From assembly GCF_011045215.1 (NCBI RefSeq), contig NZ_CP049201.1: a stretch of 64,000 bases of DNA. One strand, 5' to 3'. Origin of the DNA: Escherichia coli (GTDB lineage Bacteria > Pseudomonadota > Gammaproteobacteria > Enterobacterales > Enterobacteriaceae). Position numbers: made by a program. Shown one piece after another: positions 27,001 to 30,000 of the stretch; within the stretch, counting starts at the first letter, position 1, and every line of letters starts with the position of its first letter.

Positions 27001-30000
27001 TTATCAATAATGTTTATTAATTCATCAAACATGTCGCCCAGTGAATGTTGATGTGAGGAAAAATTTTTAATATTTCGGATGTCACGGGTATTCTGGTTTT
27101 TAGCCAGAACACCAAAACATGAAAAGACATCATACATTATAGTGATAAAATTATACATAACATTCTCCTTTTATTGCACTATATAAAATTTTAACATTAT
27201 ATCATTTTGCTTTTCTGTTAACTGGTTTTCATTTTTGAATCAATATTTTCTGAACAGGGTAATAGTACACGTATTAACAGATTATGTCAGAAGGCCCCGG
27301 TGATGCCTTCTGACGATAGATTAATGTGATATTCTATTGGTATCTGGAGACCATATGGCAACAGTTACAGTACATTCTCCCCGCTGTAATTCCTATAAAG
27401 TGTACCATTATGATCACAGCACCTCAGATCATGAGCGTTTCCAGTGCTAATCCTGCAAATGTGTGTATTTCAACTGAATTACATCTACGAAACCCGAAAA
27501 CCAGGCATCAAAGAGCAAATTGTTGAAATGGTTCATAACGGAGTCGGGTTCGCGATAGCTCCAGAACGCTGAAGGTGGATATCAACACCGTCATTCTCAC
27601 TTTATAAAACGCTCACCACGCAAAGTAACCACATCTCCAGACGTCAGTGCCGATGTGGCGCTTATCTGCGAACTTGATGAACAATGGAGTTTTGTCGAAA
27701 ACAAAGCTCGTCAGCAGTGGCACTGGTATGCGTATAACACCAAATCTGGAGGTGTGCTGGCTTACACTTTTGGTCCTCGCACTGATGAAACATGTCGTGA
27801 GTTGCCGGAACTCCTGAAGCCATTCTCCACAGGCATGATAACCAGAGACAACCGGAGCAGTTATACCAGAGAAATGCCACAGGATAAGCATCTTGTCGGC
27901 AAGATATTTACCCGGCGCATTGAGCGCAACAATCTGACACTTCGTACTCACATCAAACGACCAGCCCGGAAAACGATTTGCTTTTCACGCTCCCTGGAAA
28001 TTCACGAAAAGCCATTGGTTCATTTATCGAAAACACTGTACTACTGACTGGAGTCATTACCAGGGCCTCTTTTGCTGTTTTTTTACCAATGAATGATAAT
28101 GAGAATCGACAGTGATAAGGAGAAAGTAAAATAACAATAATGCTGTTGTTTTCTATCGTATTGATTTTTAATTATTTATTGTCTTTTTGCTCAGCCCATT
28201 TTTTTACGCAGACAAATTTACCCGGGGAATACAAACTGTAACGACAGTTCACCACACTATGGGGGATAAAATGCCAGATCAATCCGGATACTGCTGGACT
28301 CCTTCACGCATCTTACGGATGCCTGAACTGAGCCAATTGTTAGGTATATCTCGTTCGACAATTTACGAAAAAATGAATCCGTTATCGAAATACTACGATG
28401 CAACCTTCCCCAGGCCGGTACGTCTTGGTAGTGGTTCTGTGGGCTGGCGTTCATCAGCTATTGACGAATGGCTTACTTTACATACTGTACCTGCCAGATC
28501 AGCAGTCAAAGGTGTTAATGACGAAGTGCGACATACGCTTTCTTCAGATATGACCATGAGCAGATAAGTTTTTGTCATCACGTGATCACCTCAGGAGGAA
28601 AAAGAAGCATAAGAACAATTTAGCCAGAAGTTTAATTGATAAACAGAATTTCCAGCATTCATTGTTGAAAGAGCAGCTATTGTCGCTATTGTAGCGGTAA
28701 TTGCTGCTATAACCGAAACGTATTACGAAAAAGGAAGCATTTATGTCTTACATCAAACCGGATATGCCGTATTCAGTATATACGTGACCATCAATGATAG
28801 GGAAGGCAATAATTAAAGCTCAATACAATAAACAAGTACCTCTGACTCTGGTTGCAATGTCAGTATTAACAGCGATGTCAATTGCCTGTCAGAATCAGGT
28901 TGACGTATGCAGCCCCGGAAATTTACGTGGGGCCGTTAATATTTACACTATGGTTCTGGAGAAAGGGAAAAGACCGGGGGAAAGGTATTAGTGAAATAAT
29001 TTCTGGAGGTATTAAGAATGAGAAATATGAATGATATTTCGTGGTAAATAATACAGTCTGCACTGAATTAACCTTATCGGTTTATTAAACATCAGATCTA
29101 CAAATGCTCAGTATTTCTCAGAGCATCAGGTCTGAATAGCAGCTATTTTCGCTATTGTAGCGGGAGTTGCTGCTATTTTACTAACCCATTAATGAAAAGA
29201 GAGGCTTTTATGTGCTTACTTGCACCAGAAAATCCTTATCCGATATATGCACTACCACCGCTGGTGAGAAATGCAATAATTGAAACTCAAAAAAATACAC
29301 AGGCACCTTTGGCTATGGTGGCAACATCCGCATTAACAGCGATCTCAATTGCCTGTCAGAATCAGATTGACGTGTGCAGACCTGGAAATTTACATGGGCC
29401 TGTTAATCTTTACTCTCTGATTCTGGCTGATTCCGGTGAAAGGAAAACGACCGTGGATAAAGTGTTTATGAAAGCATTTTATCTCAGGGATGAAGCCCTG
29501 GCGGAAGAATACGCGAAACTGGTTGAGAATTACAGTACAGAAAAGGAAATATGGGAGCAAAAACAAAAAGCGCTGGAATCAAAATTTCATAAAGAGATTC
29601 GTGCCGGTAAAGATTACAAGGCAACAGAATCAGAGCTTGAAACGCATCTGAATAAATCTCCTGTTCCGCCGCAGATACGTCGAACAATTTTTAATGAGAC
29701 AACGATAGAGGGAATGTTAAAATATTACTCTGATAGCAATCGCTCTTTTGCTCTTGTATCCAGTGAAGGGGGGGTAATTTTTGACAGCCGGGCCATGAGT
29801 AAACTGGGAATTATTAACACTTTGTGGGATGGAGGTTCTCTTTTCATCGACAGGAAATCATCTCCCGGAATTAATTTGAAGGAGCCAAGACTGACGATAT
29901 CGGTGATGATTCAGCCTGATGTTTACCACAAAGGTTTTTGTACGCGAAAAAAAGAACTTGTGAAAACGTCAGGACATCATGCAAGGTTTTTGATGTGTCA

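What the first reader, a model, noticed from the sequence alone, without database searches (positions are those of the whole stretch)
28600..29230. Tandem partial duplication of the yfjI-like 5' region
About 90 bp of upstream DNA and the first ~60 codons of the DUF3987 gene are present twice (28650-28991 and 29100-29400), with the first copy ending in an early stop. The leader repeats contain (gc)tattgtagcgg and gctgctat motifs that may be regulatory sites.
Basis: seen in the sequence. Interest (0 to 1): 0.3.

Follow-up and report, generated by a model that had tools for sequence, protein, structure and literature searches.

The report
Old duplicated leader of island helicase
About 465 bases holding a control palindrome and the first ~90 codons of a mobile island's helicase gene occur twice in tandem: the upstream gene piece is a dead relic, both palindromes are still conserved, and the finding is real but largely ordinary.

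Summary
Window 28644-29002 aligns with 29109-29479 at 80% identity (score 241; best shuffle 26), with a period of 466-467 bp.

It is not recent or strain-specific. The same junction occurs in about 1,337 of 5,426 complete E. coli genomes, in islands at several chromosomal sites, so it arose once, long ago.

The upstream yfjI fragment is a pseudogene. dN/dS between lineages is 1.2-1.7, against 0.15-0.47 for the same codons of the intact gene, and different lineages carry different stops and indels.

Each copy keeps a ~41-nt imperfect palindrome built from GCTATT hexamers (10% variable columns against 31% in the dead coding part). The same element lies between alpA and yfjI across Enterobacterales, including K-12 CP4-57, always as a single copy there.

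My best reading is that it is the cis-acting control site of the yfjI (DUF3987 helicase) module, most likely a protein-bound DNA site. An RNA stem-loop in the alpA-yfjI transcript is a serious rival. The binder is unknown.

A short conserved mini-ORF and a 9-bp variable-number repeat also turned up. Overall this is a new member of known kinds, of modest interest.

The parts
28271..28567 (+). alpA-like gene (98 aa), directly upstream of the duplicated leader
   Evidence: Pfam Phage_AlpA PF05930, E=5e-19. Annotated as a helix-turn-helix regulator in the 99.5%-identical locus L001.
28644..29002 (+). Copy 1 of the repeat unit: leader plus decayed 5' end of yfjI. In less-decayed relatives the similarity runs on to about 29018.
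   Evidence: Local alignment to 29109-29479, 80% identity, score 241 against a shuffle maximum of 26. Extended homology is visible in L048.
28670..28710 (+). Palindrome/hairpin 1: AGAGCAGCTATTGTCGCTA-TTG-TAGCGGTAATTGCTGCTAT
   Evidence: RNA fold -19.0 kcal/mol, z=-3.6. Only 4 of 41 columns vary among three lineages, against 31% in the adjacent pseudo-CDS, p=0.0013.
28676..28693 (+). 9-bp tandem repeat GCTATTGTC GCTATTGTA in the left arm of hairpin 1. The unit number varies among strains (2 here, 4 in L046, 5 in L295).
   Evidence: The +9, +18 and +27 bp length classes fit this.
28743..28991 (+). Pseudogene fragment of yfjI (N-terminal edge of DUF3987), with TGA at codon 15 (28785-28787). The 65-aa ORF 28794-28991 is what annotation pipelines call.
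   Evidence: Pfam DUF3987 profile positions 1-42 of 364, E=5.8e-8. dN/dS 1.2-1.7 between lineages. Lineage-specific stops and indels.
29005..29047 (+). Conserved Shine-Dalgarno (GGAGG 29005-29009) plus 9-codon mini-ORF (ATG 29018 to TAA 29045-29047, MRNMNDISW) in the DNA between the copies
   Evidence: 5 of 52 columns vary over 29006-29057, against 31% in the pseudo-CDS, p=0.0002. Within the ORF the only changes seen are AAT to AAC and TAA to TGA. Function unknown.
29074..29106 (+). Second conserved block between the copies (TTATCGGTTTATTAAACATCAGATCTACA...)
   Evidence: 3 of 27 columns vary over 29080-29106, p=0.015. No promoter-like site was called here.
29109..29479 (+). Copy 2 of the repeat unit: leader plus 5' end of the intact yfjI gene
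   Evidence: 96-97% identical to single-copy relatives L003 and L049 and to L002 copy 2.
29136..29176 (+). Palindrome/hairpin 2: ATAGCAGCTATTTTCGCTA-TTG-TAGCGGGAGTTGCTGCTAT. Pairing can extend to 29134-29178.
   Evidence: RNA fold -25.1 kcal/mol, z=-6.3, against -17.2 on the - strand. 4 of 41 columns vary, p=0.0012.
29210..30643 (+). Intact yfjI gene (477 aa): DUF3987 helicase-family protein with a C-terminal winged-helix domain
   Evidence: Pfam DUF3987, E=5e-84, profile 1-363 of 364. C-terminal 76 aa modelled at pLDDT 90.5 as H-H-H-beta-beta, with generic winged-helix structural matches.

Best explanation
The region is the leader of the replication-helicase gene yfjI in a CP4-57/PICI-like integrative island (int, alpA, yfjI, yfjJ). 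Long ago a ~465-bp segment was duplicated in tandem. It ran from just after alpA, through the leader palindrome, into about codon 90-100 of yfjI. The upstream gene fragment was dead from the start and has since decayed neutrally. In both copies selection has kept a ~41-nt imperfect palindrome made of GCTATT hexamers (two direct, two inverted). This element is the hallmark of the alpA-yfjI spacer throughout Enterobacterales. I infer that the palindrome is the cis-acting control site of the yfjI module. Most likely it is a double-stranded DNA site bound by a protein, of the operator or iteron type. One candidate reader is the winged-helix tail of YfjI itself, as in self-regulated plasmid Rep genes or the P4 alpha and SaPI Rep origin sites. 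The duplication then gives this island lineage two such sites 466 bp apart in front of yfjI, the upstream one with a variable number of hexamer units. Shown: the duplication, its single origin, the pseudogene status of copy 1, the selective conservation of both palindromes, and their family-wide distribution. Inferred: that the site acts as DNA rather than RNA, and who binds it. My sub-confidences are: duplication plus pseudogene 0.95; palindrome under selection 0.85; acts as protein-bound DNA 0.45; YfjI is the binder 0.25.
For: Duplication. Single old origin: the same junction and inter-copy DNA occur in islands at different chromosomal sites (L001 next to ycdU/pga, L002 at thrW/proA). About 1,337 of 5,426 genomes carry the inter-copy DNA, a median of once each. 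None of about 45 other yfjI loci has a second fragment. Pseudogene: dN/dS is 1.2-1.7 among copy-1 lineages against 0.15-0.47 for copy 2, and copy 1 vs copy 2 gives dS 0.39-0.46 and dN/dS 0.6-0.73, as expected for one neutral and one constrained branch. Lesions are independent: TGA, CAA or TAA at codon 15, different indels, and an ISVsa5 cut. Palindromes under selection: 4 of 41 variable columns each, against 31% in the pseudo-CDS. Family-wide element: K-12 CP4-57 and about 20 other enterobacterial loci carry GCTATTTC(C/T)GC(C/T)ATTAATAGCGGAATAGC at the same position. The symmetry is real: 81% of cells paired against 76% in shuffles (0 of 500 reach it) and 22-64% when slid, with 8 pairs changed on both sides. 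For DNA recognition: 13 stem positions are invariant although YfjI is only 41% identical and the flanks cannot be aligned, while the centre or loop varies in sequence and length (TTG, TTAA, TTGA, AAAA, TTTG). K-12-type departures show no strand bias (G.U 13, A.C 9). The 9-bp hexamer unit expands from 2 to 5 copies. The double-hexamer motif occurs nowhere else in the window. Not tied to alpA: two different AlpA classes precede the same hexamers, a K-12-class AlpA precedes an unrelated palindrome in L019, and window-vs-L002 homology starts at the palindrome. YfjI has a confident C-terminal winged helix, and the turn plus third helix differ in L019, the one locus with a different palindrome. Literature: DUF3987 proteins are 5'-3' helicases of mobile-element replication modules (PMC11724360). 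alpA and the primase/helicase gene form one induced module in PICI and PICMI elements (PMC6092414; PMC10803314).
Against: In this island lineage every transition-type departure from perfect pairing in the inner stem is G.U-compatible on the coding strand (G.U 19, A.C 0). The + strand fold is also 3-9 kcal/mol more stable than the - strand fold. That fits an RNA hairpin better than a double-stranded site. The outer right hexamer of hairpin 2 (AGTTGC) no longer matches AATAGC but still pairs. The link between the YfjI tail and the palindrome rests on a single covarying locus (L019). L018 has the GCTATT-type tail but no palindrome. K-12 YfjI is closer to L018 and L019 than to the window protein. 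The winged-helix matches are generic and not significant (best E=0.035), and such domains can also mediate protein contacts. No promoter is convincingly conserved around the palindrome. In-place duplication is not proven, because about 75-90 nt between the copies has no detectable source. Persistence of a neutral fragment over dS of ~0.4 is unusually long.
Confidence: 0.45

Rival explanations
1. The palindrome works as an RNA stem-loop in the alpA-yfjI transcript. It would act as an intercistronic attenuator, processing site or stability element that sets how much yfjI is expressed relative to alpA. The duplication then puts two such barriers in series.
For: Strong + strand folds (-25.1 and -19.0 kcal/mol, z=-6.3 and -3.6), weaker on the - strand. 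Window-type inner stem has G.U 19 and A.C 0; over all 27 sequences the inner 13 pairs are 93.4% paired on the + strand against 86.5% on the - strand. Changes on both sides occur at 8 pairs, for example TTTCCGC/GCGGAAA to TTTTTGC/GCAAAAA in L020. L019 has an unrelated 12-bp-stem hairpin at the same position. alpA and the downstream replication gene are co-expressed in related elements.
Against: The stem sequence is invariant while the loop varies, the reverse of most protein-recognised RNA hairpins. K-12-type hairpins show no strand bias and carry uncompensated A.C, T.C and C.A juxtapositions. There is no U-tract in K-12-type leaders and only 4 U after hairpin 2, so it is not a canonical intrinsic terminator. 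No Rfam family matches. Counted as independent events rather than sequences, by my reading of the per-pair table, G.U vs A.C is only about 10 to 6-7.
Confidence: 0.3
2. The palindrome is the target of the adjacent AlpA protein. It would be either an AlpA operator or part of an AlpA-dependent antitermination switch like the one in Pseudomonas aeruginosa (promoter-embedded binding element plus downstream terminator).
For: It lies immediately downstream of alpA in every hairpin-bearing locus with an identifiable alpA. AlpA activates downstream PICI genes (PMC6092414). P. aeruginosa AlpA lets RNA polymerase bypass terminators just upstream of its target genes (PMC7969949). Hairpin 2 followed by TATTTTAC is flagged as terminator-like.
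Against: Two AlpA classes with different helix-turn-helix sequences precede the same hexamers, and a K-12-class AlpA precedes a different palindrome in L019. A recombination breakpoint separates alpA from the palindrome. No GGGACG-N5-GGTA element lies near the region, and matches in the window are at chance level. The U-tract is weak or absent. In PICMI, AlpA behaved as an excisionase rather than a transcription regulator.
Confidence: 0.12
3. On origin: copy 1 is not an in-place duplicate. It would be the remnant of a different, diverged yfjI allele, left when two related islands recombined (for example a tandem array followed by deletion), so the event could be much younger than the 20% divergence suggests.
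For: Copy 1 vs copy 2 dS (0.39-0.46) is far larger than dS among copy-2 lineages (0.03-0.18) or between single-copy genes and copy 2 (0.06). About 75-90 nt between the copies has no detectable homology to yfjI or alpA. These islands are clearly mosaic, with interchangeable alpA modules.
Against: No full-length copy-1-type allele was found in 5,426 E. coli genomes (best full-length match 77%, which is the copy-2 type), in the plasmid or phage collections, or in the protein database (only fragments of 94 aa or less, though that search also missed the copy-2-type full-length protein). dN/dS of 0.6-0.73 between the copies fits one neutral plus one constrained branch since a duplication. Copy-1 lineages themselves differ by 13-21%, so the fragment is old either way.
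Confidence: 0.2
4. Copy 1 encodes a functional small protein, an N-terminal DUF3987 fragment of 65-75 aa.
For: An ORF is annotated in many genomes, and L002-type islands keep a 75-aa ORF with a start codon and ribosome-binding site.
Against: dN/dS is 1.2-1.7. There are stops at codon 15 in two of three lineages, frameshifts in L048-type islands, and an IS insertion in L050. It covers only profile positions 1-45 of 364.
Confidence: 0.03

Closest known systems
alpA-yfjI spacer of the E. coli K-12 cryptic prophage CP4-57 and its enterobacterial relatives
   Same: Same gene order (int, alpA, yfjI, yfjJ) and the same four-hexamer palindrome about 50-70 nt upstream of yfjI (K-12: GCTATTTCCGC-CATTAATA-GCGGAATAGC).
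   Different: Those loci have one copy of the leader and no gene fragment. Here the leader plus ~90 codons is present twice, the stem is extended by ATAGCA/TGCTAT, and several pairs are G.T. YfjI is only 41% identical to K-12 YfjI. I found no published description of the palindrome.
Iteron or inverted-repeat control sites of replication initiator genes (plasmid Rep autoregulation; P4 alpha ori/crr repeats; SaPI Rep origin iterons). From general knowledge, not tested here.
   Same: Short sequence-specific repeats in direct and inverted orientation next to the gene for a replication helicase/initiator that carries a C-terminal winged-helix domain. The unit copy number varies. This lineage has two clusters.
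   Different: No binding, origin activity or AT-rich unwinding element has been shown. The cluster is small (four hexamers) and lies upstream rather than downstream of the gene. The strand-biased G.T pattern in this lineage is not expected for such sites.
Pseudomonas aeruginosa AlpA antitermination (PMC7969949, PMC9371919)
   Same: An AlpA-family gene immediately upstream, and a stem-loop between it and the genes it may control.
   Different: No ABE-like motif, no proper U-tract, and the hairpin does not covary with AlpA class.
int-alpA-primase/helicase cores of phage satellites (E. coli PICIs, Vibrio PICMIs)
   Same: The same three-gene core, with DUF3987 as the replication gene. AlpA is the inducer of the cycle.
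   Different: No packaging or capsid genes were seen here. The island carries an IS1 remnant and pseudogenes and is probably a decayed or non-satellite integrative element. No leader palindrome or duplication is described for those elements.

Membership tests
Tandem partial gene duplication leaving a pseudogene fragment | Two adjacent direct copies with similarity well above chance | tested here: met
   80% identity over 350 nt, score 241 against a shuffle maximum of 26, period 466-467 nt.
Tandem partial gene duplication leaving a pseudogene fragment | The truncated copy is free of purifying selection and carries disabling lesions | tested here: met
   dN/dS 1.2-1.7 against 0.15-0.47 for copy 2. 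Lineage-specific stops, indels and an IS cut.
Tandem partial gene duplication leaving a pseudogene fragment | Both copies derive from one locus (in-place event) rather than from two alleles | tested here: inconclusive
   No full-length copy-1-type allele was found, but 75-90 nt at the junction is unexplained and one of the searches was insensitive.
DUF3987 / YfjI family (PF13148) | Match to the family profile above Pfam's cut-off | tested here: met
   Full gene 283 bits (cut-off 27), profile 1-363 of 364. Copy-1 ORF 32.7 bits, profile 1-42 only.
Phage_AlpA family (PF05930), upstream gene | Match to the family profile above Pfam's cut-off | tested here: met
   68.4 bits (cut-off 21), E=5e-19.
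Intrinsic (Rho-independent) terminator | G+C-rich stem followed directly by a run of U | tested here: not met
   Hairpin 2 is followed by only UAUUUUAC (CUUUAC in L002 and L048). Hairpin 1 and all K-12-type hairpins have no U-run.
P. aeruginosa-type AlpA antitermination target | AlpA-binding element GGGACG-N5-GGTA inside the target promoter | tested here: not met
   No match in 28000-29300 with up to 2 mismatches. Window-wide count is 33 against 38 expected by chance.
Any curated RNA family (Rfam 15) | Covariance-model score at or above the gathering threshold | tested here: not met
   Best hit 24.3 bits to a plant miRNA model with a threshold of 110, which is hairpin noise.
Conserved structured element (hairpin or palindrome) | Pairing kept across relatives, with changes on both sides | tested here: met
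   81% of cells paired against 76.3% in shuffles (0 of 500) and 22-64% when slid. 8 of 19 pairs have changes on both sides. Caveat: the sequences are related, so these are not independent events.
Iteron/operator site of a replication initiator | Repeated sequence-specific units next to the initiator gene | tested here: met
   Four GCTATT/AATAGC hexamers with 13 invariant stem positions across 27 sequences, 30-70 nt upstream of yfjI. The unit number varies from 2 to 5.
Iteron/operator site of a replication initiator | Specific binding by the initiator, and an effect on replication or transcription | not testable with these tools
   Only indirect support: a confident C-terminal winged helix in YfjI and one covarying locus.

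The most novel reading that the evidence does not exclude
The two palindromic hexamer clusters are not just a relic plus an operator. Together they would form a bipartite replication-control region (an origin with a second cis site, like P4 ori/crr or the paired iteron sets of SaPI origins), read by the winged-helix tail of the YfjI helicase. On this reading the dead gene fragment is kept as a spacer, the 9-bp repeat tunes the number of binding units, and the conserved mini-ORF between the clusters is part of the switch. That would explain why a neutral fragment has survived a divergence of dS ~0.4 in about a quarter of E. coli genomes.
Probability: 0.12. Interest if true: 0.55.

Novelty: new member of a known kind. 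Interest (0 to 1): 0.3.

Why it matters
As a duplication it matters little. It is a fossil that annotation pipelines turn into a spurious 65-75-aa 'DUF3987 domain-containing protein' in over a thousand genomes, and that ORF should be treated as a pseudogene.

The more useful result is the element the duplication exposes. A four-hexamer palindrome is conserved between alpA and the DUF3987 helicase gene across Enterobacterales, K-12 CP4-57 included, and it is kept by selection even where the gene behind it is dead.

CP4-57-like and PICI-like islands are common, influence host physiology and phage defence, and their replication control is poorly understood. A defined candidate control site gives a concrete handle for experiments on how yfjI is switched on.

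Tried and rejected
1. Source of the DNA between the copies. Local alignment of 28990-29112 against the rest of yfjI, three alpA genes with their spacers, K-12 alpA-yfjI and the whole window gave only chance-level scores. Part of it (to ~29018) is still yfjI-like in L048; the rest stays unexplained.

2. Donor allele for copy 1. Nothing full-length was found in E. coli genomes, the protein database (uninformative, because even the copy-2-type full-length protein was not returned), plasmids or phages.

3. Large pattern scans. GCTATT-N3-GCNATT-N1-2-TAGC against metagenome and viral contigs was too permissive. Of 240 loci held after the two scans only 7 encode a YfjI relative, and only two gave new hairpin variants.

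4. MAFFT alignment with flanks (A2) shifted the right arm by one base between the two hairpin types, so I discarded it for pair counts and replaced it with A3.

5. Other copies of the hexamer pair near int or att, the AlpA-regulon idea: none in the window, and only weak matches in K-12.

6. Link between hairpin and yfjJ (a possible rolling-circle origin): yfjJ is present with and without the hairpin, so this does not discriminate.

7. Rfam: no family. PDB by sequence: nothing. Full-length YfjI model: helicase core poorly predicted.

8. Intrinsic-terminator and Pseudomonas-type AlpA-element readings: defining features not met.
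Full report
**1. The observation**

Reading 28300-29800 shows an alpA-like gene ending at 28567. 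After it come two similar stretches, each with a leader and an ATG-led reading frame (ATG 28743 and ATG 29210).

The repeat finder reports direct repeats of 233 nt at 75% identity and 74 nt at 74%, with spacing of 466-467 nt. A gapped local alignment joins them into 28644-29002 against 29109-29479. Identity is 281 of 350 (80%) and the score is 241, against a mean of 20.8 and a maximum of 26 for shuffled sequence.

So the repeat is real.

**2. Setting**

Pfam identifies three proteins:

| Protein | Pfam family | E-value |
|---|---|---|
| Upstream gene | Phage_AlpA | 5e-19 |
| Full downstream gene | complete DUF3987 (YfjI) | 5e-84 |
| Copy-1 ORF | first ~42 profile positions of DUF3987 | 5.8e-8 |

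The window is 99.5% identical to E. coli ZYB62. There the neighbourhood is annotated as integrase, a 605-aa hypothetical protein on the other strand, an IS1 remnant, the HTH (AlpA) gene, a 'DUF3987 domain-containing protein' of 65 aa, YfjI, an inovirus-Gp2/YfjJ-type protein and a decayed AEP primase.

This is the int-alpA-helicase core of CP4-57-like and PICI/PICMI-like islands:

- A DUF3987 protein has been shown to be a 5'-3' helicase of a mobile-element replication module (PMC11724360).
- In PICIs and PICMIs, alpA and the primase/helicase gene belong to one induced module (PMC6092414; PMC10803314).

**3. Age and distribution**

- The 1.4-kb region matches 1,398 of 5,426 complete E. coli genomes, including Nissle, ATCC 25922 and O157:H7.
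- The DNA between the copies occurs in 1,337 genomes, a median of once each.
- The copy-1 query finds a median of two places per genome.
- Islands at other chromosomal sites have the same junction and the same inter-copy DNA, for example L002 at thrW/proA.
- None of about 45 yfjI loci from other species, nor K-12, has a second N-terminal fragment.

The event therefore happened once and was inherited.

A few E. coli islands are single-copy (L003, L049). Their gene differs from copy 2 by dS 0.06, while copy 1 and copy 2 differ by dS 0.39-0.46. Their spacer is copy-1-like up to about 10 nt before the palindrome and copy-2-like after it. I read them as secondary losses by recombination between the two copies.

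**4. Copy 1 is a pseudogene**

| Comparison | dN/dS |
|---|---|
| Between copy-1 lineages | 1.37, 1.19, 1.73 |
| Same codons of copy 2 | 0.15-0.47 |
| Copy 1 vs copy 2 | 0.6-0.73 |

The last value is what one neutral and one constrained branch would give. The lesions are lineage-specific:

| Lineage | Lesions in copy 1 |
|---|---|
| Window group (window, L001, L046) | TGA at codon 15 and a 10-column gap |
| L002 group (L002, L047, L053, L054) | CAA at codon 15, a stop after ...LADS, 75-aa ORF |
| L048 group (L048, L051, L052) | TAA at codon 15 in L048 and L051 (CAA in L052), a 1-nt insertion and a 12-nt deletion |
| L050 | ISVsa5 insertion |

No full-length allele resembling copy 1 was found in E. 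coli genomes, plasmids, phages or the protein database. One of those searches was insensitive. An in-place duplication followed by decay is the simplest reading. A mosaic origin from a lost allele is not excluded, because 75-90 nt at the junction has no detectable source.

**5. What is conserved**

Among three lineages that differ by 13-21% in the pseudo-CDS, the share of variable alignment columns is:

| Segment | Variable columns | p vs pseudo-CDS rate |
|---|---|---|
| Copy-1 pseudo-CDS | 31% | - |
| Hairpin 1 | 4 of 41 | 0.0013 |
| Hairpin 2 | 4 of 41 | 0.0012 |
| SD plus mini-ORF (29006-29057) | 5 of 52 | 0.0002 |
| Block 29080-29106 | 3 of 27 | 0.015 |

The two hairpins keep copy-specific differences, so recent gene conversion does not explain their conservation. 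Hairpin 1 is therefore maintained although the ORF behind it is dead.

**6. The palindrome is a family feature**

K-12 CP4-57 has GCTATTTCCGC-CATTAATA-GCGGAATAGC between alpA and yfjI. About 20 loci from Escherichia, Citrobacter, Kluyvera, Enterobacter, Dickeya, Pectobacterium, Brenneria and others have the same element.

- It consists of two direct and two inverted GCTATT hexamers.
- E. albertii (L021) has a perfect 30-bp palindrome.
- Citrobacter (L020) has TTTTTGC...GCAAAAA where the others have TTTCCGC...GCGGAAA.
- More distant yfjI loci have alpA abutting yfjI with no leader.
- Kosakonia L019 has an unrelated 12-bp-stem hairpin at the same place.

On a 27-sequence alignment, the 19-pair structure is 81% paired, against 76% in shuffles (0 of 500 reach it) and 22-64% when slid. 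Eight pairs change on both sides. No Rfam family matches. A search for papers naming both yfjI and alpA returned three, none about the element.

**7. DNA site or RNA hairpin?**

For RNA:

- The + strand folds better than the - strand (-25.1 and -19.0 against -17.2 and -15.4 kcal/mol).
- In the window-type hairpins every transition-type departure from pairing is G.U-compatible on the coding strand (19 against 0).

For DNA:

- 13 stem positions are invariant across a divergence at which YfjI is 41% identical and the flanks cannot be aligned.
- The centre varies in sequence and length.
- K-12-type hairpins show no strand bias (13 G.U against 9 A.C) and carry uncompensated mismatches.
- The 9-bp hexamer unit of hairpin 1 expands from 2 to 5 copies among strains.

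The element is not a canonical terminator.

It does not follow alpA. Two AlpA classes precede the same hexamers, L019 pairs a K-12-class AlpA with a different palindrome, and a recombination breakpoint lies at the palindrome's start. The Pseudomonas AlpA-binding motif is absent.

YfjI ends in a confidently modelled winged helix (pLDDT 90.5). Its structural matches are generic: MecI/BlaI, ORC2, ArsR and MarR, with TM 0.65-0.77 and no significant E-value. Its turn and third helix differ in L019 only.

I therefore favour a protein-bound DNA control site of the yfjI module (0.45), possibly read by YfjI itself (0.25). An RNA stem-loop is the main rival (0.30) and an AlpA target is less likely (0.12).

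**8. Consequence of the duplication**

This island lineage has two control palindromes 466-477 bp apart in front of yfjI. They are separated by a decaying gene fragment, a conserved mini-ORF with a strong ribosome-binding site, and a second conserved block. Whether the second site changes regulation or replication cannot be decided in silico.

**9. Verdict**

As a duplication it is an ordinary, old gene remnant that annotation pipelines mis-call as a small protein. The part worth following up is the conserved, apparently undescribed palindrome of the alpA-yfjI leader. It is a new member of known kinds, with interest about 0.3.

Noticed in passing
window 28676-28693 (also L046 and L295): The 9-bp unit GCTATTGTC in the left arm of hairpin 1 is a variable-number tandem repeat: 2 units here, 4 in NZ_CP196120, 5 in NZ_CP146588. 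The +9, +18 and +27 bp length classes among E. coli genomes fit this. Hairpin 2, whose repeat is imperfect, was not seen to vary.
   Followed up: partly
window 29005-29047: A strong Shine-Dalgarno (GGAGG) lies 8 nt before a 9-codon mini-ORF (MRNMNDISW). It is far better conserved than the flanking pseudogene, and the only changes seen within the ORF are silent (AAT to AAC, TAA to TGA). Function unknown. The GGAGG seems to derive from yfjI coding sequence (CAGGGATGAAG).
   Followed up: partly
window 29074-29106: A second conserved block (TTATCGGTTTATTAAACATCAGATCTACA) lies between the mini-ORF and hairpin 2. No promoter-like site was called there.
   Followed up: partly
L004 (K-12) 4858-4905: K-12 also has a mini-ORF with a Shine-Dalgarno (GAGGGTG...ATG AAT TCA TAC TCA ATT GCT GTC ATC GGA GTG TAA, 11 codons) between alpA and its palindrome. 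It is not conserved in the other K-12-type loci.
   Followed up: no
L019 (Kosakonia pseudosacchari) about 2895-2940: An unrelated perfect 12-bp-stem hairpin (GTATCAGTTGTG...CACAACTGATAC), followed by a T-rich run, occupies the alpA-yfjI spacer. This locus's YfjI winged-helix tail differs in the turn and third helix (LRQLAILTEVL instead of FRNRSKxNELL).
   Followed up: partly
window 28672 (boundary): Homology between this island and the L002/L003-type islands starts exactly at hairpin 1. Upstream of it the alpA genes belong to different classes (98-aa K-12-like here, 75-aa class II there), so the alpA and yfjI modules are exchanged by recombination at the palindrome.
   Followed up: partly
window 27355-28048: A frameshifted IS1 remnant lies between the 605-aa hypothetical gene (25341-27158, - strand, no Pfam match) and alpA, so the native alpA promoter region is probably disrupted in this island.
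   Followed up: no
window 30644-31581: A ~940-bp stretch without a convincing gene lies between yfjI and the yfjJ-type gene; in K-12 the gap is ~150 bp. It is AT-rich (GC 0.33-0.41) with strongly negative AT skew and short direct repeats such as ATCTGTTATGTTATGTTGTCT (30896 and 31053).
   Followed up: no
window 31582-32145 and 32718-33221: There are two different YagK/YfjJ ('inovirus Gp2-type') reading frames. The first is 97% identical to the one in E. albertii L021, although that locus's YfjI is only 39% identical to the window's, another sign of module shuffling. The decayed AEP ('TOTE') primase annotated after the first in L001 should lie between them; I did not map it in the window.
   Followed up: no
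L050 (NZ_CP148498) and L048 (NZ_CP034787): In L050 an ISVsa5 element cuts copy 1 at about codon 14 and the rest of the island is gone. In L048 the full yfjI is itself frameshifted. These islands are decaying in several ways.
   Followed up: no
window 29210-30643, residues ~402-477 of YfjI: The C-terminal 76 aa fold as a high-confidence winged helix (pLDDT 90.5). This domain is more conserved between the window and K-12 proteins (0.57) than the protein as a whole (0.41).
   Followed up: partly
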